64,000 nt of DNA from Eledone cirrhosa (lineage: Eukaryota), in assembly GCA_964016885.1 (NCBI GenBank), contig OZ024742.1, positions 301,506,001 through 301,570,000 of the forward strand, given 5' to 3'. A program made the translations under genes and the position numbers. Positions 10,548 to 62,546 of this stretch are shown here, in pieces. The number at the start of each line of letters is the position of its first letter. Within the stretch, counting starts at the first letter, position 1. Below the pieces are notes generated by a model. It was given only the letters and a program-made list of their open reading frames with translations. It ran no database searches and was not told where the DNA came from.

Positions 10548-13268
10548 TCATCATCCTCATCATCGTTAATGTCTATCTTCCACGCTAGCATGGGTTTAGA
10601 TGGGAATTGTCCCACGTGAGGCAAGATTGGTTGTCTTGCTCGTATAGGACTGTCTGGTGGGTTTTCTACGGCTGGATGCCCTTCCTAACACCAACCACGT
10701 TTACAGTGTGGACTGGGATGTTTTTACCGTGTTACCTACATGGCCACATTACAGCATGAACTGTGTGTTTTTTTTGTCGTGACACCTACACGACCTCATT
10801 TATTTAGGACTGGATGTTGTGGCACCAACATAACTTTACAGAGAAAGATAGGGGTGGGGGTAGGGGTAGTGGGATGGGGGTGTATTTTTGGTTAGGAAGT
10901 GCCTACTGACTGTAGGTGTCGCTTTGTACTTAGGCAAGGCGGGTCGTCTGTATTACTGCGTAGTACCAAAGATCTCGGTCCAGTGACATTGTCTTGGAGA
11001 GGTGCAAGTGTGTAAGGTCGGAATTGATCAAATTGTCCCAGGTTTTTCTGGGTCTACCTACTCCGTAGCTTCCATCTATTTTGATCGCCCTGCACTTTTT
11101 TATACAGCTGTCGTCTTTCATGCGCACCACGTGACCATACCAACGTAGTCTTCTCTCGAGTAAACAGCATCTGATCCCTCTTATTCCTAATTTCTCACTT
11201 AGTTCATTTATGCTTTGCCGTTCACGTATATTACTATTACACATCCAACGGAGCATGCAAGCTTCGTTCCTTTCCAGTTTGTGCAGACCCTCTGCACACA
11301 AGGCCCATGTCTCACTGCCATGTAACATTGCTGTTCATATGCAGGCATCATACAGTCTGCCTTTCATTTAGGGAGAAACCTTTAGCAGCCAATAGTGGTA
11401 TAAGCTCTCTGAACATTTTCCATCCCGTTCTGACTCTAGCTACTGTACTTTCGGAGCACCCTTCACCACTGCTGGTTTTGTCACCCAGGTAACGGAAGGT
11501 GTCCACTATTTCTATAGAACCATCTGGGCAATGGAAGGAGCTAGTATTCTGTGGGCACTTGCTACTACTTATTGCACCTGAGCACTGGCCACATATAAAA
11601 TCTATGTTCTTAGTTAGTTTACCTGTGATCCCACTACATCTTTTATGCACCCATACTTTGCATTTGGGACATAAAATGGAGTTTCTGTTTACTCCTTTCC
11701 TACACACTGAGCATGGCCATTTCCCAGAGGGGACCAGTGCCCTATTTTCCTTCCTACATACTAGAACTTTAGTCTTAGACAAGTTAATTTTAAGGCCTTT
11801 TGATTCTAGGCGATGCTTCCATGTTTGGAATTTCTTCTCTAGTTCAGCCATTGATTCAGCTATGAGCGTTAGATCATCTGCGTATAGGAGTTCCCATGGG
11901 CAGCTGGTCTTGAACTCCTCTGTTATAGCCTGAAGGGCAATAATAAATAGGAGGGGGCTAAGGACAGAGCCTTGGTGAACACCTACTTTTACACTAAATT
12001 CTTCACAATATTCATTGTTAATTCTAACCTTACTGACTGTTTCATTATACATAGCTTGTATAGCTCTCACAAGCCATTCATCTACACCTAGTTTTCTAAG
12101 AGCCCACCAGATAATGGAGCGGGGGACTCTGTCAAAGGCTTTTTCCAGGTCTACAAACGCTAAGTAGAGAGGTTTACTTTTAGCTAGGTACTTCTCTTGT
12201 AGTTGTCGTACAAGGAAAAGAGCGTCTGTGGTACTTTTACCTGACACAAACCCAAACTGCATTTCATCTAGATCAATTCGCTCTCTGATTAGTTGCTCTA
12301 TAACTCTTTCTGTGACCTTCATGACCTGGTCAACTAACTTAATGCCTCTATAGTTTCCTCTATCTAGAGCATCTCCTTTACCCTTGTAGCAGTTAATGAT
12401 GATGCTGCTACGCCAGTCTTTTGGTATGACCCCATTCTGTATTACTTGGTTAACTATACGTGTGACCATAGTATGTCTCACCATTCCAGATGCCTTCAAC
12501 ATCTCAGCAACTATCTCCGAAGGCCCAGCTGCCTTGCCTGTCTTCATATCTTTGATTGCCTTACTTATTATACTACCTTTAACTTGCACCGCTGGTCCTT
12601 CTATTGGATCAATTTGGGGCAGACTATCTTTTTCCCATTTATTCTCCTCATTTAATAGTCTCTCGTAGTGACACTTCCAGGCTATCTTCTTATCAGCATC
12701 AGTGAGGGCAAGTACACCGTTATCATTACGGACACACTTCTCCCTGACAATATCACGGTTTTCCTTGACACATTGTCTAGCAATCCTGAACACCTCGCGT
12801 TTTTGGTCCTCACGTTGTAGAATATGCTTGAACTTTCTTTCCTCTGCTTCCCTTTTTGCAAGGTACACTTGTCTCCTAGCTTTTCTCCTGGCCACTTGAT
12901 AGTGCTCTCTACTTCCCCCATCCTGCCATACTTTCCAAGCCTGCTTTTTGGCCTTGATTGTCTCTTCTACCTTACTGTTCCACCACCAAGTTACTCTTCT
13001 CCTGCCAATAGGTCTGCTCCAGCCACAGATTTCATCCGTTGCTTTCAGCAGGTTCACTTTCAAGAATTGCCACTATTCCTCTATATCGCACGTCTCTAAT
13101 TGCTCTTCCTTATTGTCAAAGGCATCAAGTAATAAGCTTTTAAATTTGTCACTGGCTATGGGGTCCTTCAACTTCCATATTCTTCTCCTCAAGGTAGGCC
13201 TCCTCTGTCGTCGAGTACGTCTATTTCTGACTGTGAGGTCACTAACTACTAGGCTATGTTGGGAGGTA
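10548..13268 (-). mobile_element. RTE-clade LINE family 1, 5'-truncated and frameshifted
   Basis: ORF pieces 13073-13276, 11348-13063 and 10930-11328 with NYRGIKL, FVDLEKAFDRVPR, GVHQGSVLSP, LYADDL and RLRWYGHV. Has a ~370-bp 3' UTR and (TGA)n tail. Confidence 0.92.
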
Positions 13269-15246: not shown

Positions 15247-16135
15247 AATGAGGTTAAACTTAAAGTTAGTTGATTTATCCGAAAACTTGGATATGCTATT
15301 GTTACAAAGCAAACTAACAATTTTTTTTATTTGTAGTTGCAGTCTGACTGGACTAGAAACCATCTACCACAATTCACTTACTCATTTGTTGTATATATTT
15401 TACCATTTACTAATAAATATACCCTCCCACGTGGGCATGAAAACCCTCTTCCGTGGTCTTTAAGCTCACAAAGCAGAGGGGACATCAAGTTAGATATCAA
15501 CATTTATTCTGTCCGTTTCATTAAAGGGAAAATTGAAAAGCTTTGAAATGATATAATTGCCACTTTCTTCCAGATAAGAGCACTCTTTGGATAGACGGAG
15601 TTGCTCTTGTATAAATGTTCAAAATAGCTGGTATCGCCTGGTGGGAATATAACAAATTCAACTGGTCCTTATTCATAAAAAAGAACATTTATGTTCCTTT
15701 TTTTGAAATTTATATATTTCCTTTCAAGGAATGTATTTATACTCTCAGCTGCCTGCAAATGGTATCTTTGGAAAATTGTTAATCAATTTTTTAGTAATCT
15801 ACTGATATCAAAATCAGTAGTATATTGAAAAATGGAAAAATAGGGTAGAGGGACGTTTCGTGATTTCGAGGGACAAAAGGGGGCGTTTGGTTTAAATGTG
15901 TTGAGAACCTGTGATATATATGATATATATATTTAATATATATTTATAACATATATAGGATATATATATAATATATATATATAACATATATATATATATA
16001 TAATACATATATAACATATATATATATATATAATATATATAATTTAATAAATGAACGGAGAACAAAAAACAGAGAGGCAGTACAAATGATATTAGTATTA
16101 GTTTCACGCTTGAGAGTGGGGGTGGGGGACATATA

Positions 16136-16593
16136 TGTAGCAAGAGTTGCCTCCCTTGTCATGACAATCTCATCACCGCTCTCTAGACAGGAAGTAGCTG
16201 GAGTTGCTTCCCTTTGGGATTGACAGACTCCCTGGTGGTCACTTCCGGTCACCTCCTATAAAAGGAACAGGTCGCCACGATATCTTTCTCTTGCCTCCTG
16301 ATTTCCGAAGTGGTAACACCTGCGACCTTAGCCTGAGATGATTCCCTTTTGATAATCACTCGCCACCAAGAACAATGCAACTTGCAGCCTGAGAGCCTAA
16401 GATGTTAATACCAGCTAGAAAAGATCTCTTCTTTTCTCTACCAACTTCAGCCTGGAGTTGTGACCATCGGGTAACGAATCCTTAATATTTAATACCTTTG
16501 ACTTCTATGAAGTAAAAACATTATCACAACACACACCGGTATTTACTGTCTTTTGTAATAATTTTATATGTACACCGATACTAATCTCCTAAA
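16136..16593 (+). repeat. 5' LTR; TATA box TATAAAAG at ~16257
   Basis: TGTAGC...CTCCTAAA, a direct repeat of 21590-22047. Confidence 0.93.
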
Positions 16594-20972: not shown

Positions 20973-21589
20973 ACTGGCCATTGGAGCCTTATATATATAT
21001 TTTTTTTTTCCTGTTCTTGTTATTTATTGATTTATTGTATTACAATGTACCTCTCATTACCATTTCACTGGATGTATATATATGTTTTTCATTTCCTTTA
21101 CAACGAACATTTTAAGCTATATTCTTCTATTTGCCGGTTTATAAATTTACCACGTAAATTTGCCGTTGAAAACTGCGCATTTATTAAGAATGCTTATTTC
21201 TCTGGTCGCTGGCCTCTTGACCCTTCCAGGTCAATGCATTCACAACATCAACAACAACACAGCTTCATCAACGACTAAAACCAGCAGAACAAGCCAGACA
21301 ATTTATTTCTGCAGCACTCTGCCTGTGAGAAATTCCCTTCGGAAGTTGAAAATTTCATGTTATACCACAGACCAGAAACCACCTGCATTCATTCTCTGGA
21401 ACACATTCTTTACTGCTGTCATGTGATTGCACACATGTGAACTGTATTTTAGATATTTGAACTTTTGACCTCTTCTCTTACTTTTATTACATTGTACCAT
21501 AATTTCCATGCCTCTTACATGCTCGCCATCTTACTCCATGCATGCTTCTTTCGATTTTTATGTTTTAAAAATCTGGCGGGGGACATATA

Positions 21590-22047
21590 TGTAGCAAGAG
21601 TTGCCTCCCTTGTCATGACAATCTCATCACCGCTCTCTAGACAGGAAGTAGCTGGAGTTGCTTCCCTTTGGGATTGACAGACTCCCTGGTGGTCACTTCC
21701 GGTCACCTCTTATAAAAGGAACAGGTCACCACGATATCTCTCTCTTGCCTCCTGATTTCCGAAGTGGTAACACCTGCGACCTTAGCCTGAGATGATTCCC
21801 ATTTGATAATCACTCGCCACCAAGAACAATGCAACTTGCAGCCTGAGAGCCTAAGATGTTAATACCAGCTAGAAAAGATCTCTTCTTTTCTCTACCAACT
21901 TCAGCCTGGAGTTGTGACCATCGGGTAACGAATCCTTAATATTTAATACCTTTGACTTCTATGAAGTAAAAACATTATCACAACACACACCGGTATTTAC
22001 TGTCTTTTGTAATAATTTTATATGTACACCGATACTAATCTCCTAAA
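21590..22047 (+). repeat. 3' LTR, preceded by PPT GGCGGGGGAC (21575-21584)
   Basis: Direct repeat of the 5' LTR. Confidence 0.93.
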
Positions 22048-34198: not shown

Positions 34199-34268
34199 AG
34201 TAAGTAAGACCCCAACGGCTGAGCTCAAGCCGTTTCGACGGCTAATTCTGTACTCACTTTTCCTTCGC

Positions 34269-34297
<29 letters not shown>

Positions 34298-34299
<2 letters not shown>

Positions 34300-36673
34300 A
34301 AACACAAAAGCCTTCCCTAGTGAGGAATGTACATCCCAACATAGCTTAGTTGTCAGCGACCTCACGGTCAGAACTAGACGAGCCCTGAAACAGAGGCCAA
34401 CCTGGAGAAGAAAGATCTGGAAGCTGAAAGTCCCCTCAACCAGTAACAGATTTAAAGATATTTTACTCAACGCCTACGACAGTAAAGAAGAACAGATAGA
34501 GACATTTAACGTAGAAGAGAACTGGGAGTTCCTAAAAAATAACTTACTAGAGGCGACGGATGAGGTTTGTGGCTGGAGTAAGACCTCAAGCAGGAGGAGA
34601 GTGACTTGGTGGTGGAACAATAAGGTAGATGAAGCAGTCAAGGCCAAGAGACAGGCATGGAAAGAATGGAAGAACGGGGGGAGCAGGGTACATTACATAG
34701 AGACCAAGAGGGAAGCTAGGCGACAAGTATACTTGGCTAGGAGGGAAGCAGAGGATAGAAAATTCAAGCATGTTTTACAACGTGAGGACCAGAAACAGGA
34801 GGTATTCAAGATTGCGAGGCAGTGTGTCAGAGATAGTTGTGATGTCATTGGAGAGAAGTGTATCCGGAATGATAAAGGTGAGCTTGCCCTCACAAGTGCT
34901 GAGAAGAAAGATGCATGGAAGAGTCATTATGATAGATTACTAAATGAGGAGAATGCATGGGAAGAAGAGACCCTACCCCACGTAGACCCTATAGAGGGAC
35001 CAGCAGTACAAGTCAGCGGCAGCGTAGTAAGTAAGGCAATCAGAGATATGAAGATAGGGAAGGCAACCGGTCCATCGGGTATAGCTGCCGAGATGCTGAA
35101 GGCATCTGGGTCTGTAGGTCACACTATAACCACACGTATCGTTAACCAGGTAATACTAGAGGGGGCCATACCAAAAGATTGGTGCAGTAGCATCATTGTC
35201 AACTGCTACAAAGGTAAAGGCGATGCACTAGATAGAGGAAACTATAGAGGTATAAAGTTGATGGACCAGGTCATGAAAGTAACAGAAAGAGTTATAGCAC
35301 AGCTGATTAGGGACCGGGTGAATATAGACGAGATGCAATTTGGGTTTGTTCCAGGGAAAGGCACCACTGATGCGCTCTTCCTTGTGAGGCAATTACAGGA
35401 AAAGTACCTAGCTAAAAGTAAGCCACTCTACTTGGCATTTGTCGACCTTGAGAAAGCCTTTGACAGAGTTCCACGTGCAGTAATCTGGTGGGCTCTTAGA
35501 AAACTAGGAGTAGATGAATGGCTTGTGAAAGCGGTACAAGCCATGTATAGGGGAGCAGTCAGCAAAGTTAGGATTGGCAATGAGTATAGCGAGGAATTTA
35601 GCGTACAGGTTGGGGTCCACCAGGGCTCTGTTCTTAGCCCTCTCCTGTTCATCATAGTCCTGCAGGCAATAACGGAGGAGTTTAAGACCGGATGCCCATG
35701 GGAACTCCTGTATGCTGATGACCTCGCACTCATAGCTGAATCTATGGTAGAACTAGAGAATAAATTCCAAACCTGGAAGCAGGGACTAGAGAGAAAGGGC
35801 CTCAAAGTCAACATGACAAAGACTAAGGTCCTTATAAGTAGACGAGAAAACAGAACCCAGATCCCCTCAGGGAAATGGCCTTGCTCAGTATGTAGGAAAG
35901 GTGTAGGTAGGAACTCCATTCTTTGCCCCAAATGCAAACAATGGGTACACAAGAGATGTAGCGGGATCTCAGGAAGCTTAATTAAGAATGTAGGATTCAC
36001 ATGCAGCAGCTGTGCTGAAACAGCAAGCAAACAGCCACAGGAAACAAGTACCACCAATCTCTGGGAGGGCCCTGTAGAAACAGTAGACAGCTTCTGCTAC
36101 CTAGGTGACCGAATTAGCAACGGAGGTGGGTGCTCAGAAAGTACAATAACTAGGGTAAGAACGGGATGGAAGAAGTTTAGGGAACTACTACCACTGCTAG
36201 CTGCAAAAGGCTTCTCCCTCAGAATGAAAGGCAGACTGTATGATGCGTGTATCCGAACAGCGATGTTGCATGGTAGTGAGACCTGGGCGCTGAAGGTGGA
36301 AGACTTACGTAGATTAGAGAGAAACGAAGCCTGCATGCTCCGATGGATGTGTAACAGTAATATACGTGAACGACAAAGCATAAATGAATTGAGAGAGAGA
36401 CTGAGCATAAGAGGAATCAAATGCTGCGTGCAGGAGAGGCGGTTACGCTGGTATGGACATGTGATGCGTATGAAGGATGACAGCTGCATAAAAAGGTGCA
36501 GAGCACTAGAAGTTGATGGAAACCGCGGAGTGGGGAGACCCAAGATGACTTGGGATGAGGTGATAAAAGCCGACCTTACCCAACTACACCTCTCAAAGTC
36601 AATGACACACGACCGTGACTTCTGGCGTCACGCAGTAATACAGGGTACCCGACCTCCCATGGGTACATGCTGA
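34298..36673 (+). CDS. RTE family 2 ORF, 5'-truncated within the APE domain, otherwise uninterrupted (RT and PHD-like finger)
   Basis: Open from 34298 (QHSLVVSDL) to TGA at 36673. RT motifs as in family 1; CSVC..CPKC..HKRC..CSSC at 35882-36013. Confidence 0.93.

Positions 36674-36957: not shown

Positions 36958-36960
<3 letters not shown>
34298..36960 (+). mobile_element. RTE family 2 element with a long 3' UTR
   Basis: ORF plus a ~280-bp 3' UTR ending GGACGTAAAACGG(TGA)n. Confidence 0.92.
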
Positions 36961-36999
<39 letters not shown>

Positions 37000-37055
37000 T
37001 ATATAATATATATAAATATATAATATATATATATATAATATATATATATATATAT

Positions 37056-38221
37056 CATCATCATCATCATCATCACCGTTTTACGTCCATTCTTCCATGC
37101 TAGCATGGGTTAGACAGGTTGTCTTGTTGTGAGCAGTGTCTGGTCGGCTGACCATGCCTTGCTCATACAGGAACTGATTTTGGCCTGGTTTCTGCAGCTG
37201 GATGCCCTTCCTAACACCAACCTCATTTACAGTGAGTGCTGGGTGCTTTTTCCCGTGGCGCCTACACGTCCACTTTACAGTGTGGGTTGGGTGCTTTTTT
37301 GCCGTGGCACCTCGACGACCACTTTGCAGTGGGAGGGTGTGGGGGCATATTGTCTATATGCTTCAGCTTGTACCCATGGGAGGTCGGGTACTCTGTATTA
37401 CTGCGTGACGCCAGAGGTCACGGTCGTGTGTCATCGCCTTTGAGAGGTGCAACTGGGTAAGGTCGGCCCCTATCACCTCATCCCAGGTCTTCTTCGGTCT
37501 CCCCACTCCGCGGCTTCCATTGACTTCTAGTGCTCTGCACCTTTTTATGCAGCTGTCATCCTTCATACGCATCACATGTCCATACCAACGCAACCGCCTC
37601 TCCTGCACACAGCATTTGATTCCTCTTATGCTCAGTCTCTCTCTCAATTCATTTATGCTTTGTCGTTCGCGTATATTACTATTACACATCCATCGGAGCA
37701 TGCAGGCTTCGTTTCTTTCTAATCTACGTAAGTCTTCCACCTTCAGCGCCTAGGTCTCACTACCATGCAACATCGCTGTTCGGATACACGCATCATACAG
37801 TCTGCCTTTCATTTTGAGGGAGAAGCCTTTTGCAGCTAGCAGTGGCAGTAGATCCCTGAACTTCTTTCATCCCATTCTTACTCTAGTTATTGTACTTTCT
37901 GAACACCCACCTCCGCTGCTAATTCGGTCACCTAGGTAGCAGAAGCTGTCTACTGTTTCTACAGAGCCCTCCCAGAGATTGGTGGTACTTGTTTCCTGTG
38001 GCTGTTTGCTGCTTGCTGTCCCAGCACAGCTGCTACATGTGAAGCCTACATTCTTAATTAAGCTTCCTGAGATCCTGCTACATCTCTTGTGTACCCATTA
38101 TTTGCATTTGGGCAGAGAATGGAGTTCCTACCTACACCTTTCCTACATACTGAGCAAGGCCATTTCCCTGAGGGGATCTGGGTTCTGTTTTCTCGTCTAC
38201 TTACAAGGACCTTAGTCTTTG
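37056..38221 (-). mobile_element. RTE family 2, 5'-truncated copy, tail-to-tail with 34298-36960
   Basis: Reverse complement of ~35815-36960. Confidence 0.9.
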
Positions 38222-38235
38222 TATATATATATATA

Positions 38236-38419
38236 TGAAAAACGTAATATAAGAAAATTATAGTAATTAGCTTACTTACTTAAATTTCACTCCAACTAAT
38301 TAGTTTCTGAAAGGAAATATACATAGTCTTCAAATGGAGACCATGGAGAAACTAATTAGTTGGAGTGAAATTTAAGTAAGTAAGCTAATTACTATAATTT
38401 TCTTATATTACGTTTTTCA
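38236..38419. repeat. Perfect ~73-bp inverted repeat containing a GAAAC-TAATTA-GTT hammerhead stem III half
   Basis: Arms 38236-38308 and 38347-38419. Confidence 0.8.
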
Positions 38420-40160: not shown

Positions 40161-40405
40161 CTATTTTTGGCAATGAGAATAGTTAGAAGCATTCAGTATT
40201 GGATTGGATGTAAATGAGTTCTGTTTGATTGTAAGACAGAGTTATTTTTACAGAACATTTAAACATGATTTGGAATGGACCTCCATCAGTTTCAATGAGG
40301 AGTGATCCAGCTGTTCAATCATCAGAACAGCCTGCTCATGAAATTAACATTAAATAGCTGAACATTTCAAAGACACATGCATTTAAACCAGCTGTATCCA
40401 GCCAA

Positions 40406-40693
40406 TATATATATATATGACAATATACCACCTATCAGCAGGTCAATACCTGGACAGAGACTCAGATTTGCTGGCTACTGTTGGCGCAGCAAGGAAGAAA
40501 TAGCAGGTGATGTATTGTTATGAAGTCCATCTCATGGTACAAGAAACGCTAGTCGTCCCAAGAAGACATACGTCAAGCAGCTTGAGGACGATACTGGATG
40601 CACTGTGGAAGAACTGGCAAACGCTATGAGAGACAGAGATGGAGGAAACGTGTGGTAGAAAGCCGAGCAAGCTCGACCTGATGATGATGATGA
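40406..40693 (+). mobile_element. Short 3' fragment of a fourth RTE-like family with a 13-bp TSD
   Basis: QRLRFAGYCWR...RPKKTYVKQL...AMRDR, (TGA)n tail, and TSD TGTATCCAGCCAA at 40393-40405 and 40694-40706. Confidence 0.82.
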
Positions 40694-41351
40694 TGTATCC
40701 AGCCAAAATTCTCTCATCTATTCCCGCTCAAACTAGCTGGAAACAACTGCTCATACTGATGTTAAGGTATTATTCTAAAAATAAATAACATCAAAATTTC
40801 ATAGATTCAATATTATGTGAGATAATTTTGTTAGATAAAGCCTTTACTGTGAAAATATAATTGTAAATATAGAGTAATGAAAGTGCTAAAGGGTTAAACA
40901 TGATTTGGAATGGACCTCCGTCAGTTTCAATGAGGAGTGATCCAGTTGTTCAATGAATAGAACAGCCTGCTCATAAAATTAACATGTAGGTGGCTCATCA
41001 TTTCAAAGACACGTGTATATTTAAAGTAATTCTCATTGAGATTCAGTATATAACAAAGCTGACCCTTTGAATTGCAAACACCGTCAATCCGATGGGCTTC
41101 CAAACAGTTTCTGCCTACACAAGGCATGGGTCGACCCAAGGCTATGATAAATAACACTTGCCCAAGATACTACACAGTGCGATTGAACCTGGGACCTAAT
41201 GATTGTCAAGTGAGCTTCTTAACCATTCCACCATTCTGTGTCCACAACAGTACATTTATACAAGATTTGGAATGATAAAAATAGTAAGAGAAAAAAATAA
41301 AATTGAAATAATCTGGAAATAAAAATAAAGAATAAAATAAAAAGTCCTTAC

Positions 41352-41490: not shown

Positions 41491-43200
41491 TCATTAAATA
41501 TTGGATAATAGAAATATAGTAACCCTGAGAAGATTCTGGTACATTTTACAACATTATTTAATGTGTGGCCTTACACAACTGAAACAACTTCTCAATAAAA
41601 CAGTAATAAACACACACAAAAAATCAAGAAAGTTCTTAGTCGTTCCTTTATATGTTTGTACATATAGGTGCCTGTAGGTGTCGGTAGGTGAGTAGGTGTC
41701 AGTGTGTGTGTATGTCTACATGTAGGTGCATCTATGTCGGAGTGTGTATGTCTCTGTATGTGGTCTTGCAAAATAGTAACTATGAAAAAGTTTATTTCAG
41801 GTCAATATAATATAATATTTTTAGTGCTTTACAAAACTACCCTAACTAGTCTAACACTATTTACCTAGACTACAATAATCACAGTGATTCACTGAATAAC
41901 AAGACACATCATCATCATCATCATCATTTTACGTGTTCTCTACACTGGCATGAGTTAAATGGGGGTGTCGTGGTATGAGACTAGATGGATCAGATCAACC
42001 CATCTTACTTATATGTTCTATATTTGGCCTGCTTTCTAATGCTAGATGCCCTTTCTTATGCTAACCACTATACAGGGAGTAATGGGTGTATTTTATTGTT
42101 GCACCATGACTACCAGTTTACATTTTAACATAGTACCAGCAATAGAGAGATGTTGTCACATGCTCATCCAGACTGAAGGGTCCTCTCAAACCCTATATTT
42201 TCTCCATTTGATTGCCAATATATAATATGATCTAATAAAATATTTCCACTACAGAGGAATATTTACACTCAGTTCAGTCATCTTGAAAATATCACATCAT
42301 TTATCACATCTACATTGACAGATGTGGGAGATATTTACACTTAGTCAAGAGATCTTTCAAATGTCACATCATAGCACTTAAACAACCTGAACACCAAGAA
42401 GATGTGAAGTTATAAACAAATCATTAAATTCATCTCTTCATTATTCCATCTTATATGGTTTAAAGGTTTGGGTGTTTGGCTATCAATCTTAAAGTCAGTT
42501 CCTGGTGGTATATTGTGTCCTTGAACAAAACACTTTATTTTACATGGCTACAGCCCACTCAGATGGCAAAAATGAGTCATACCTGTATTTCAAAGGACCA
42601 GCCTTATCACATCTTGTGTCATACTAAATCTCAGATAGAATTATGTTAAGGGTACACATGTCTGTGGAATGCTCAGCCACTTACATGTTAATTTCATGAG
42701 CAGGCTGTTCCATTGGTCAAATAACTGTAACACATATTGTCAGAAGTGATGGAGATCCAACACACACACATTGCATCTTATTAAATGTATGTCTATTTTA
42801 TGCTAAACATCCTAACAAAAGACTTATGTCATGACAATTGTTCCTAATTTCTGAACAATCACCACCATATATTACAAAAGAAGGGTGTTAAAGTTGTATA
42901 TATGGTTGGCTACTCTATATTATTACAAAAGAATTGTGTTAAAATTGTATGTATATATTAGAATTTAATTATTCCAATCCATGCTTCTTTAAGTGTTGTC
43001 TTTGTCTTCAACACAAAAATGTCTGTAAAATAAAGATTATTCAAAAGCAATCTGATAAATTATTTAGTTATTTCATACATACTCACAAAACACACACATA
43101 CACACACGTGGATAAAACACACATATATACTCAGATCCACACATATCTATACACACATGCATACACGCACACACACATACATACATACATACATACATAC

Positions 43201-46029: not shown

Positions 46030-46245
46030 CTCTTCAGCATTTATACCAACCGTACCCAGCCAGATTTCTCTCACCTCTTTCTGTTCAAACCAGCCGTAAT
46101 CAGCCACTCGTACTTATGTTCAGGTATTGTTCTCAAAATAAATATCAAAATCTCATAGGTTCAATATTATGTGAGATAATTATGTGAGATAAAGTCTACC
46201 ATGAAAATACAAGAGTAAATATAGAATAATGTAAATGCTAAAGGG
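46030..46245. mobile_element. piggyBac-like MITE; an interrupted paralog lies at ~40378-40893
   Basis: TTAA on both sides and TIRs CTCTTCAGCATT / AATGCTAAAGGG. Confidence 0.75.
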
Positions 46246-48234
46246 TTAAAATGTTTATAGTTATCTAAAACCTTCCATCATAATTTTATGTAAAAATATT
46301 TATTAAATTGTGCTCCAAACAGCAACTTAATAATGAGTAAGTTATATATTACTAAATCCCTCAAAATATTGATATATTTTCAAAATGGTTTTAAAAATTA
46401 TAAGCAGTATTTTCCATTAGAGATACCACATGGGGACTGAAGGTGGACTGACACTTGAATACTAAAATATGAAAGGAAAAACATCATAAGGACATGATTT
46501 CAATGGTGATTTAATTTGTAATGAATATATGCAAGAGGAAAAAATAATGTGAGAAAAATCAGAAAGCTAAAAAACATAGTCTATTAAATAACAAGAAAGG
46601 AAAACTGTATAAAAATTAAAATCTCTTTTTATTTACACTACATAAAATTAACATAACATTACTATTTAGGAAAAGATTATATACACAATAAATCCAACAT
46701 TAATTACAATGAAATAATGTAATGTGTTTTGTTTTGGTGTAAGTATTAATGAATGTTAGGCTAAATGATAAATACCTTAAGAAAACAATTTTCTTGTATT
46801 GACAGGACACACAATAGTTTGTGTCTTGTAGAAAAATAGCATAGCATAAAAATTGTTGGTGGGAAAGACTAGTAAAGATATAAATCTGACTGACATAGAT
46901 TCAGGAAAGATTTAGATCACTTGCCATCTTAAGATTTTCATAGCATTTTATAGACCTGCTAACCTCTAAAAACACCAAACAAGGAGAACCATGAAAAAAA
47001 GAGCTCCAAAGCCGGGGGAACTAATGCACAAAATGGTGAGATTTTACATAATGAAAGCTATACCCATTTTCACAAGAGAAGACATCTCTCACCTACCCCA
47101 AAGTGGGTGGAAGATCTCCCCATGGGATGGAGAGAGTTGACAGGTCTGATTTTATATAACTAGCCATTATGTGACCAAAAGGTTTCTAGAACATTGTAAA
47201 TTAATTCAGTGATTGAACATAAATTTTTTATGTGTAATTTGACAGATTAATGTATCCAATAAAAGGAGCATAAGTCAAAGATAACATATATTATTCACAC
47301 AGGAAGAGAGGGTGTTCAATGGACTGGACAAATTAATTTTTTTAGCATGTCCAAAGGTAGGGGTGAAACTACTCTGTTGAAGCTATTTATTTATAATGAC
47401 TCATGAAAGATATGAAGATGACATTTGTTTCAGTAGACTTGGCTACTAATGTGTCTAGATACCTGAAGAAGTTGCCTCTTCCATTTACTAAAAACCTGTA
47501 CCAGTTATTTAAAGAAGTTTCTCCATCCATTTGATAAAAGCTTGCATTAGTTTATTTTAATAGAATACATGCAAATAAACACAGCTTATATTTTTTTTAA
47601 GTGGAGGCGTGTAGCCTAATGGTTAGGGTGTTAGACTTACGATCATAATGTCATGGGTTCGATTCCTGGGCTGGGTTGCATGTTGTGTTCTTCAGCAAAA
47701 CACTTCCTTTCACGTTTCTCCAGTATACTCAGCTGAAAATGAGTACCAGTAATAGCTGGGGGTTTAACTCTGTGATGGACTGGCGTCGTGTCCAGGGGGA
47801 GTCTTGTACTCTCAATCACTTCATGCCATGAAACTAAGACAAGCACCGGCCTAACAAGCATTAAATAGCTTAAGACAGACTTTAGACTTAGACTTTAGGG
47901 GATGGTGGGACAAAAAAGTGGAAGAAGACATGCACACACTGAATCACATGTCTCAACAAGGGGTGCTGGAATTTTCCCCCTAATAATTTTTCAGGCAAGT
48001 CAACACACTTGCAGCATTACTGCAGGTGATAATGAGGATAAGACACTGGAATAATTAAACACCATTGTGGACATCACCTGTTACATTTGTAAAGCAAGCT
48101 ACCAACAATAACAAGGACTTCATTGGCAGCAACACAGCTCTCCAAAACATCTCAAATGTCACAGGCTAAAAAAAAAAGTTTGCTGATGATCCCTGGTGTT
48201 TTAGAATTTTATTCTGTTTATTGACCTTTATTTG

Positions 48235-48426: not shown

Positions 48427-48454
48427 CTTGAAGCTGTTCGAAGTAGAGCCTATA

Positions 48455-48781
48455 TATATAGGCTCTATATCGAACAGCTTCAAGACGAGATAACACTCGC
48501 ACCTCCACTCTTTCAAAAAACACAATCTAGCCAGCTCCACTTCTTTATCTAGCTACGTACACTCCCTGAAAACTAGGAATAGACCATTTACACTACAATG
48601 GGAAGTAGTAGGTAGGGCCTCATCGTATAAACCACCAAATAGATTGTGTAGTCTCTGTCTTCTAGAAACCCATACTATAATCTTTTCGAAACTAGACCTC
48701 CTTAATAGAAAGTCAGGGACATTTTCCTCGTGCCAGCACCAATATCGGCATTCATTCCATAACTTTAAACCCAGCTGTTAG
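48455..48781 (+). pseudogene. Naiad-type GIY-YIG C-terminal half (absent from the ORF track), with a 5' fold-back palindrome at 48427-48484
   Basis: YIGSISNSFKTR*HSHLHSFK...TSLS...LQWEV...CSLCLLE...LLNRK...SCQH. Confidence 0.8.
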
Positions 48782-61159: not shown

Positions 61160-61646
61160 ACACAGAGAAACAGAGAAACAGAAATGTGTGTAACACTGTT
61201 ACAACAACATTACAAAATGACGAAATAACAGTGACAGCCTTTGCAGACGTTGAATTAAATAACAAAAAGGGAAATAATAAACTAAAAAATATGAATAAGA
61301 AATTCAAAGAAAAAAACAACAACTAGAGAATTAGAAACTGTCCCGATATTTGTAAGTGACTCATCAATTATGAGAGATAAATTGGAGTGGGTTACTACAG
61401 AATAAAGCTACCTAGATGACCTGACTTACAATAATAATATATACACTATATTACTTTAATGTTAACAAACCTGCTTTTATTGATAAATTAAACAAATTAC
61501 TGTATTATGTAGTATATAAAGTAGTAGGAAAAAGGTTATTTACATGATCACAGCATAAAATAACCATAGTGGGACTTACGTATGTTTGTTATACATAAAA
61601 ATATTGTAAATGTATACATACATACATGTATATATATATATATATA

Positions 61647-62528
61647 CGAGGTGTGTCAGAAAAGTTCCAGGACTGATGTCACAAAAGATTTATTTCAAAC
61701 CCAAACTTCACACTAAGAGTTTTCTCCTTCAAAGTAATCCCCTGGAGTCTAATGCACTTTTCCTTTTCTGCCACGCTTGCATGCACTCCTGGAAGGATTC
61801 TTCCAGGATCCTCCGCAGTTCTGTCGTCATGGCCTTTTTGATATCGTCCACGTCATCAAAACGGGTCCCCTCCAGGTCGTACTCGAAGATCCATGACTCA
61901 TCACCGGTGATGACTGTCCCTAGCAAGTCTTGTTCAGTTTCAAGACGCTCGAGGATGTCCTGGCACACTTGCATGCGTCGACCCTTCTGGTTCAGCAGTT
62001 TTGGCACCATCTTCGCGCAGACTTTCCACATGTCCAAATCTTCAGTGAGAATCTTCCAGACGCTGTCCCGATTCATGCCCAGCTCATTTGCCATCAGTCG
62101 AACAGTCAGCCGACGATCGTTACCCACCATCTGCCTGACGCGCTCAACGTTGACCTCAGTCTTGGTTGTTGAGGACCTTCCGCTCCTGGGGTCATCTTCC
62201 ACGTCCTCGCGTCCTTCTTTAAACCTCTTGCACCACTCAAAAACACGGGAGCGTGACATCGTCTCATCTCCATACACTTGGAGCAATCCCAGTGCTTCTG
62301 ACGGAGTTTTCAAGTTTGTTCGTTGCTCTGTGCTCATTGCTTGACGACCTGAAACAGAGGACATGTATATAAAATTATGAAGGAAAAAGTTTGATCGCTG
62401 CAGAGAGCTAAGATTACAGTTACATACTCCAGGGGGATTACTTTGAAGGAGAAAACTCTTAGTGTGAAGTTTGGGTTTGAAATAAATTTTTTGTGACATC
62501 AGTCCTGGAACTTTTCTGACTCACCTTG
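61647..62528 (-). mobile_element. Internally deleted mariner element with ~103-bp TIRs and TA TSD
   Basis: VYGDETMSRSRVFEWCKRFKEGREDVEDDPRSGR, KVCAKMVPKLL and ITGDESW, then a jump to GTRFDDV. TIRs 61647-61748 and 62426-62528. Confidence 0.92.
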
Positions 62529-62546
62529 TATATATATATATATATA

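What the first reader, a model, noticed from the sequence alone, without database searches (positions are those of the whole stretch)
40393..40706. (TA)n lies inside the target-site duplication: LINE insertion appears to create TA microsatellites
The layout is TSD (40393-40405) - TATATATATATAT - truncated RTE - (TGA)n - TSD (40694-40706). The paralogous uninterrupted MITE at 46030-46245 shows the empty site (CGTACCCAGCCAGATTTCTCTC) with no TA run. Most other 5'-truncated LINE ends here also abut (TA)n: 13267, 30748, 31892, 34269-34295, 38222, 48451, 52862 and 59557, across RTE, CR1 and PLE. Inference: a non-templated or slippage (TA)n-adding step at 5' junctions, perhaps host repair, seeds microsatellites that later attract mariner, hAT, Gypsy and RTE insertions.
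Basis: partly seen in the sequence, partly recalled or inferred. Interest (0 to 1): 0.75.

Follow-up and report, generated by a model that had tools for sequence, protein, structure and literature searches.

The report
Rare TA birth at LINE junction
A short TA repeat did appear where this jumping-gene fragment was pasted in, likely by a slip while its end was being joined, but this is a rare event: elsewhere in the genome these elements sit next to TA repeats mostly because they land in repeats that were likely already there.

Summary
The local observation holds. A perfect 13-bp target-site duplication (TSD) encloses (TA)5 of extra bases, a 263-bp RTE-like LINE 3' end and a (TGA)5 tail, inside a MITE whose 37 of 37 matched paralogous sites lack TA. 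The generalisation fails. Among 36 copies of this family with a complex TSD, only this locus clearly has (TA)>=4 inside it, plus one doubtful case. TA abuts 3' tails as often as 5' ends (5'-only 11, 3'-only 12, both 19, of 82). A second family inserted 30 times into a TA-poor satellite; its one 5' TA run matches the element's own 5' UTR. Long TSDs show TA lying outside them. So TA adjacency is mostly target preference. This locus is a case of known 5' extra nucleotides, likely templated from the element's single CAATATA beside the junction (chance about 2-5%, post hoc) and lengthened by slippage. Earlier scan notes on other DNA of this genome also found TA-seeking LINEs. Low interest.

The parts
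40379..40405 (.). left part of the host MITE-like repeat (left end truncated relative to the paralogue)
   Evidence: aligns to 46037-46063
40393..40405 (+). 5' copy of the 13-bp target-site duplication
   Evidence: identical to 40694-40706; single-copy in 37 of 37 paralogous sites
40406..40415 (+). 5' extra nucleotides, (TA)5; neither target nor in-register element sequence
   Evidence: absent from empty paralogues and from sibling elements; junction unique in genome
40416..40678 (+). 5'-truncated 3' end of an RTE-like LINE (family A); first three bases TAT continue the TA run; ORF C-terminus with one stop and one frameshift
   Evidence: 94-95% identity to siblings; long sibling L102 carries APE and RT Pfam hits; translation
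40421..40427 (+). the element's only CAATATA, identical to the TSD end plus first extra bases; candidate template for the extra bases
   Evidence: 1 site in 3400 nt of L092, at +2 from the junction; 7 of 151 other truncation points have such a match
40679..40693 (+). (TGA)5 tail; first TGA is the ORF stop codon
40694..40706 (+). 3' copy of the TSD; its first two bases TG continue the tail (3' microhomology)
40707..40898 (.). right part of the host MITE-like repeat
   Evidence: 81% to 46052-46250
46037..46250 (.). uninterrupted paralogue of the host repeat (empty-site proxy, no TA run)

Best explanation
A truncated RTE-like LINE inserted into a TA-free site, and ten extra TA bases sit at its 5' junction, likely made when the target's free end briefly copied the element's nearby CAATATA, slipped on the TA unit and re-annealed at the TAT where the copy now begins, perhaps with later slippage growth. 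Shown: TSD, TA-free empty paralogues, sibling sequence, rarity. Inferred: target-primed reverse transcription with TG tail/target pairing; staggered second nick 13 bp away; annealing-type 5' end joining with a templated, slipped insert; enzyme unknown (element RT or a host end-joining polymerase). Genome-wide, TA next to LINE ends is mainly target preference: the GAT-ending tail pairs with AT at the nick, so copies fall in or at either edge of existing TA runs.
For: Empty paralogues 37 of 37 TA-free. Sibling sequence ends in TAT at the junction. CAATATA occurs once in 3400 nt, 2 nt from the junction; a 7-nt match of this kind lies within 12 nt of 7 of 151 other truncation points and 58 of 3360 positions. 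Other extras look templated or short: L038 repeats its upstream flank; B copy L231 has two extra AT units between a target AT and an element AT. Rarity. Target preference: tail/flank junction reads AT|AT in 47 family-A and 70 family-B copies, the top class in both; TA within 12 nt of 30 of 82 5' ends and 31 of 82 3' ends versus 5.5-7% at random positions; TA lies outside the 5' TSD in L009, L026, L079, L093; paralogous empty sites of TA-flanked copies such as L214, L216, L220, L228 already contain TA. Literature: extra 5' nucleotides templated by flanking genomic or LINE DNA (PMC4760211); POLQ inserts of about 10 bp with slippage (PMC5068794).
Against: The template match was found after the fact and its chance level (2-5%) is modest. 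A pure TA run carries no information on its template, so non-templated addition fits as well. How many of the five units date from insertion and how many from later slippage is unknown; no read or contig bridged the run in other samples. The run is also exactly in register with the element's own upstream 12 nt, with a 6/8 match between TSD end and element at -21, which this model leaves as coincidence. Family B TSDs are mostly too short to place TA inside or outside (4 complex TSDs of 207), so several 5'-only TA cases (L396, L401, L404) are unresolved.
Confidence: 0.62

Rival explanations
1. One-off non-templated addition: the reverse transcriptase running off its template, or a host polymerase, added T/A bases without a template; later slippage purified them into (TA)n.
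For: R2 polymerase adds non-templated bases and R1/R2 5' junctions carry them (PMC2718515 passages); short extras here are T/A-rich (T, TA, ATA, TTCC).
Against: Does not explain the unique CAATATA match beside the junction; that paper says such bases can be of any sequence, so a perfect 10-nt alternation needs later slippage.
Confidence: 0.17
2. The copy originally joined about 20 nt further upstream through microhomology between the TSD end and the element, and the intervening 12 nt were later replaced by TA through deletion between two AT motifs plus slippage.
For: Local alignment places the junction at -20 with the run in exact register; 6/8 match at -21; other copies truncate at -14 to -20.
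Against: 27 positions in 3400 nt match the TSD end at 6/8 or better, so one nearby is not rare; needs a deletion and an expansion of equal length in a copy otherwise about 95% identical to siblings.
Confidence: 0.1
3. One reading: a general TA-adding step at LINE 5' junctions seeds most TA microsatellites next to RTE, CR1 and PLE ends, which then attract further elements.
For: This locus; doubtful L089; two extra AT units in L231; 100 of 335 copies have (TA)>=3 at the 5' junction.
Against: Of those 100, only this locus has a complex TSD outside the run with no TA on the 3' side; symmetric 5'/3' TA; 30 satellite insertions without an unexplained run; TA outside long TSDs. CR1 and PLE were not sampled genome-wide.
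Confidence: 0.06
4. The TA run pre-existed in this one MITE copy or is an assembly error.
For: Empty sites are paralogues, not the orthologous allele; the run was not bridged by independent data.
Against: A pre-existing run would have to lie between TSD and downstream flank and should appear after the 3' TSD; it does not. Contigs of another sample match the 3' junction with 0-1 differences.
Confidence: 0.05

Closest known systems
5' extra nucleotides of LINE insertions (zebrafish ZfL2-1/ZfL2-2, human L1, Drosophila R1/R2; PMC4760211 parts 1-2 read, PMC4245944, PMC2912911 and PMC2718515 passages)
   Same: Short extra bases between the 5' TSD and a 5'-truncated element; most siblings show microhomology instead; extras appear templated from flank or element.
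   Different: Here the extra bases are a pure (TA)5 that reaches microsatellite length; different clade and host; extras are rarer than the roughly half reported for ZfL2-2 and near the 14.6% reported for truncated L1 (8 of 36 here have any).
RTE-clade insertion signature with tail/target complementarity (Nishiyama and Ohshima 2018, PMC6007223 passages)
   Same: Microsatellite tail; first TSD bases match the tail (TG here, AT in most copies).
   Different: In this genome the match drives landing in long TA arrays; the upstream T-stretch of that paper was not tested.
Microsatellite birth by non-LTR elements (Grandi and An 2013 review, PMC3812793 passages)
   Same: A microsatellite born with or soon after an insertion.
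   Different: The passages seen describe 3' tails and internal proto-microsatellites, not the 5' junction.
Polymerase-theta templated insertions (PMC5068794 passages)
   Same: About 10-bp inserts copied from beside the break, with slippage and re-priming on short homology.
   Different: Described for break repair in C. elegans; no evidence here on which polymerase acted.

Membership tests
LINE insertion by target-primed reverse transcription | TSD, 5' truncation, intact 3' end with repeat tail | tested here: met
RTE-clade LINE | APE endonuclease followed by RT in one ORF | tested here: met
   Sibling L102 has Exo_endo_phos then RVT_1 hits in successive broken frames; single ORF inferred, copies are frameshifted
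RTE-clade LINE | very short 3' UTR ending in a tandem-repeat tail | tested here: met
   stop codon is the first TGA of the tail
RTE-clade LINE | RT groups with RTE in a phylogeny | not tested
5' extra nucleotides (EX junction) | bases between 5' TSD and element that match neither the target nor the element in register | tested here: met
   10 nt
5' extra nucleotides (EX junction) | templated from flanking or element DNA | tested here: inconclusive
   7-nt match at +2, chance 2-5% post hoc
5' extra nucleotides (EX junction) | formed during integration, not later | not testable with these tools
   needs de novo insertions or alleles; one search did not bridge the run
General TA-adding 5' junction pathway (proposed) | TA inside complex TSDs is common | tested here: not met
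   1 clear plus 1 doubtful of 36
General TA-adding 5' junction pathway (proposed) | 5' excess of TA over 3' | tested here: not met
   11 vs 12 of 82; 10 vs 12 of 64
General TA-adding 5' junction pathway (proposed) | new TA runs in TA-poor hosts | tested here: not met
   30 satellite copies, 28 distinct junctions, one run that matches the element's own 5' UTR
General TA-adding 5' junction pathway (proposed) | holds for CR1 and PLE | not tested
   only the window's single sites were inspected

The most novel reading that the evidence does not exclude
A minor but real route of microsatellite birth: in a few percent of insertions, AT-microhomology joining at the LINE 5' end slips and writes a TA proto-microsatellite; with more than 11,000 young copies in one family this would seed hundreds of TA runs, which the same TA-seeking LINEs then use as landing sites, a feedback loop.
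Probability: 0.22. Interest if true: 0.5.

Novelty: new member of a known kind. Interest (0 to 1): 0.2.

Why it matters
It is a clean, datable example of a dinucleotide microsatellite arising at a LINE 5' junction in a TA-free site. If such events made a few percent of insertions they would add a small route to microsatellite birth in TA-rich genomes. The broader claim, that LINE integration makes most neighbouring TA runs, is not supported, so the finding does not change the view of LINE integration.

Tried and rejected
Reads: six runs listed; contigs of one other sample cover the 3' junction but nothing bridged the TA run, so TA-length polymorphism and the orthologous empty allele stay open. 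Search for other copies truncated at the same point behind TA found only this locus. Empty-paralogue search resolved few sites: 18 of 199 and 25 of 301 insertions had any collinear hit, several of them spurious; none besides this locus showed a new (TA)>=4. Family B TSDs proved too short for the inside/outside test. L207's 5' TA run in the satellite was rejected as de novo because siblings carry a TA run at that place of the 5' UTR. L068's apparent 22-nt extra was rejected as continuing host repeat. Point mutation of the element's own upstream bases into TA was rejected: five changes in 15 nt against about 5% divergence elsewhere. PDB search gave nothing; the Atlas gave no result. Ichiyanagi 2007 was not held; Kajikawa 2012 was seen only as a reference.

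Full report
Observation. The window has identical 13-mers at 40393-40405 and 40694-40706. Between them lie 13 alternating T/A bases, a LINE ORF C-terminus and a (TGA)5 tail whose first unit is the stop codon. The first two TSD bases continue the tail. The host is a MITE-like repeat: the flanks align at 81% to 46037-46250, and all 37 genome-wide sites matching both flanks are 30 bp long without TA. These are paralogues, not the orthologous allele. Siblings read ...CTCTAT immediately upstream of the shared sequence, so 40416-40418 may be element-derived and the extra part is (TA)5. The junction occurs once in the genome. Contigs of another sample cover the 3' junction with 0-1 differences; none bridges the TA run.

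The element. Family A has 211 exact matches to a 35-mer at its 3' end. A long sibling has APE and RT Pfam hits. The window copy is 95% identical to 95 siblings at the median, against 96.5% between siblings. 'RTE' rests on this architecture and on recall; no phylogeny was built. The host is likely an octopus (my inference from repeat content; earlier notes say the same).

Census, family A. Of 161 copies gathered, 8 lacked flank, 61 had no TSD of 8 bp or more, 55 had a TA-like or low-complexity TSD, 36 had a complex TSD, and one gave no alignment. Later loci were chosen for a non-TA 3' flank, which enriches the informative class. Of the 36, 26 show overlap with the element, 2 a direct join and 8 extra bases (T, T, TA, TTCC, a 7-mer, a 13-mer that repeats the upstream flank, L089 and this locus). 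(TA)>=4 inside the TSD: this locus, and L089, whose 8-bp TSD is all A/T and follows an AT-rich repeat end. Without the index case the rate is 0-1 of 35. In L009, L026, L079 and L093 a long TA run lies upstream of the 5' TSD, that is outside the duplication. In the position-ordered sample, TA lies within 12 nt of both ends in 19, the 5' end only in 11, the 3' end only in 12, neither in 40, of 82; random positions give 5.5-7% per side.

Census, family B (the window's abundant RTE-like family, 11,281 exact 3'-end matches). Outside the satellite: both 35, 5'-only 10, 3'-only 12, neither 7, of 64, against 16% background in those loci. Thirty copies (28 distinct junctions) sit in a satellite whose longest native alternation is 5-6 nt; 29 have no run at the 5' junction, and the exception, L207, starts at a TA run that siblings carry in the 5' UTR. 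Of 207 copies only 4 had a complex TSD; most seem to have 0-5 bp, so 5'-only TA cases such as L396, L401 and L404 cannot be placed. L231, in the same MITE family, has two extra AT units between target AT and element AT, a small hint for slippage at AT joins. Over both families 100 of 335 copies with flank have (TA)>=3 at the 5' junction; ten passed an automatic 'TSD outside the run' filter, and on inspection only this locus and L089 are not inside TA-rich arrays or satellite. Where empty paralogues were found, TA-flanked copies had TA in the empty site and TA-free sites gained none, but only 18 of 199 and 25 of 301 insertions gave any hit.

The other window sites. None has an established TSD. 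38222 is the flank of a TA-bounded MITE with a 40/40 inverted repeat; 48451 is the centre of a 24-bp hairpin of Penelope-like sequence that natively has TATATA; 34269 and 31892 belong to larger TA contexts; 30748 is shared with a 3' tail; 13267 and 59557 are 3.5-4 units; 52862 is unresolved. 3' tails abut TA at least as often.

Mechanism. Shown: anatomy, TA-free target family, rarity, 5'/3' symmetry, AT|AT as the commonest tail junction (47 and 70 copies). Inferred: tail-to-target pairing explains landing in TA. For this locus, the TSD end plus the first extra bases reads CAATATA, which occurs once in 3400 nt of the element, 2 nt past the junction; 7 of 151 other truncation points and 58 of 3360 positions have such a match. 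The simplest path is that the target's 3' end paired there, copied TATA, slipped, and re-paired at the upstream TAT to finish the second strand; later replication slippage may have added units. This fits published accounts of extra 5' nucleotides templated by flank or LINE DNA (PMC4760211, parts 1-2 of 4 read), their frequency in ZfL2-2 and L1 (PMC4245944, PMC2912911 passages), and POLQ inserts with slippage (PMC5068794 passages). Non-templated addition (PMC2718515 passages) and in-register replacement remain possible.

Literature and novelty. Microsatellite birth by non-LTR tails and internal proto-repeats, and TA-targeting MITEs, are reviewed in PMC3812793 (passages); tail/TSD concordance in RTEs in PMC6007223 (passages). 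Searches listed no paper on TA microsatellites born at LINE 5' junctions, but two key papers on extra nucleotides were not available, and no supplements were read. Earlier scan notes on other DNA of this genome reached the TA-seeking conclusion; I had reached it before the look-up and tested it here.

Verdict. Real local event, ordinary class, generalisation not supported for the two families tested. Interest 0.2.

Noticed in passing
family A copies, e.g. L003, L009, L012, L023, L040, L083, L093: 43 of 152 family-A copies have an inverted 5' segment, many with TSDs, against 3 of 183 in family B: L1-like twin priming at high rate in an RTE-like family. The search and passages describe twin priming only for L1; possibly more interesting than the finding itself.
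   Followed up: partly
L186-L211 (G000:C1 about 7.4-9.6 Mb): Family B copies inserted at one phase and nearly all in one orientation of a short-unit satellite; already noted by the scan.
   Followed up: partly
L190, L209, L219, L236, L237 5' ends: Family B has a 5' UTR of tandem monomers of about 500-600 bp, each holding (CT)n(CA)n(TA)n; near-full-length copies often begin at that TA, so the element itself carries TA repeats to new sites.
   Followed up: partly
window 48427-48484: 24-bp hairpin of Penelope-like GIY-YIG sequence centred on (TA)5, joined to an RTE fragment; fold-back or twin priming not distinguished.
   Followed up: partly
window 38237-38418: 182-bp MITE with a perfect 40-bp terminal inverted repeat and TA on both sides.
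   Followed up: partly
window 34223-36670 and 11351-13072: Family B ORFs carry a PHD finger after the RVT_1 match.
   Followed up: no
window 36960-37075: Two RTE-like copies lie tail to tail across one TA run; the same arrangement recurs in L144, L220, L221.
   Followed up: no
window 40259-40387 and 40894-41025: A 130-bp repeat (88% identical) flanks the host MITE on both sides; a third copy lies at 42621-42733 on the other strand.
   Followed up: no
window 16121-16593 and 21575-22047: 473-bp direct repeats (99%) flanking an RT/RNase H/integrase ORF: a young Gypsy-type LTR element with TA on both sides.
   Followed up: no
window 61629-62546: Mariner-like element with about 120-bp inverted repeats in a TA run.
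   Followed up: no
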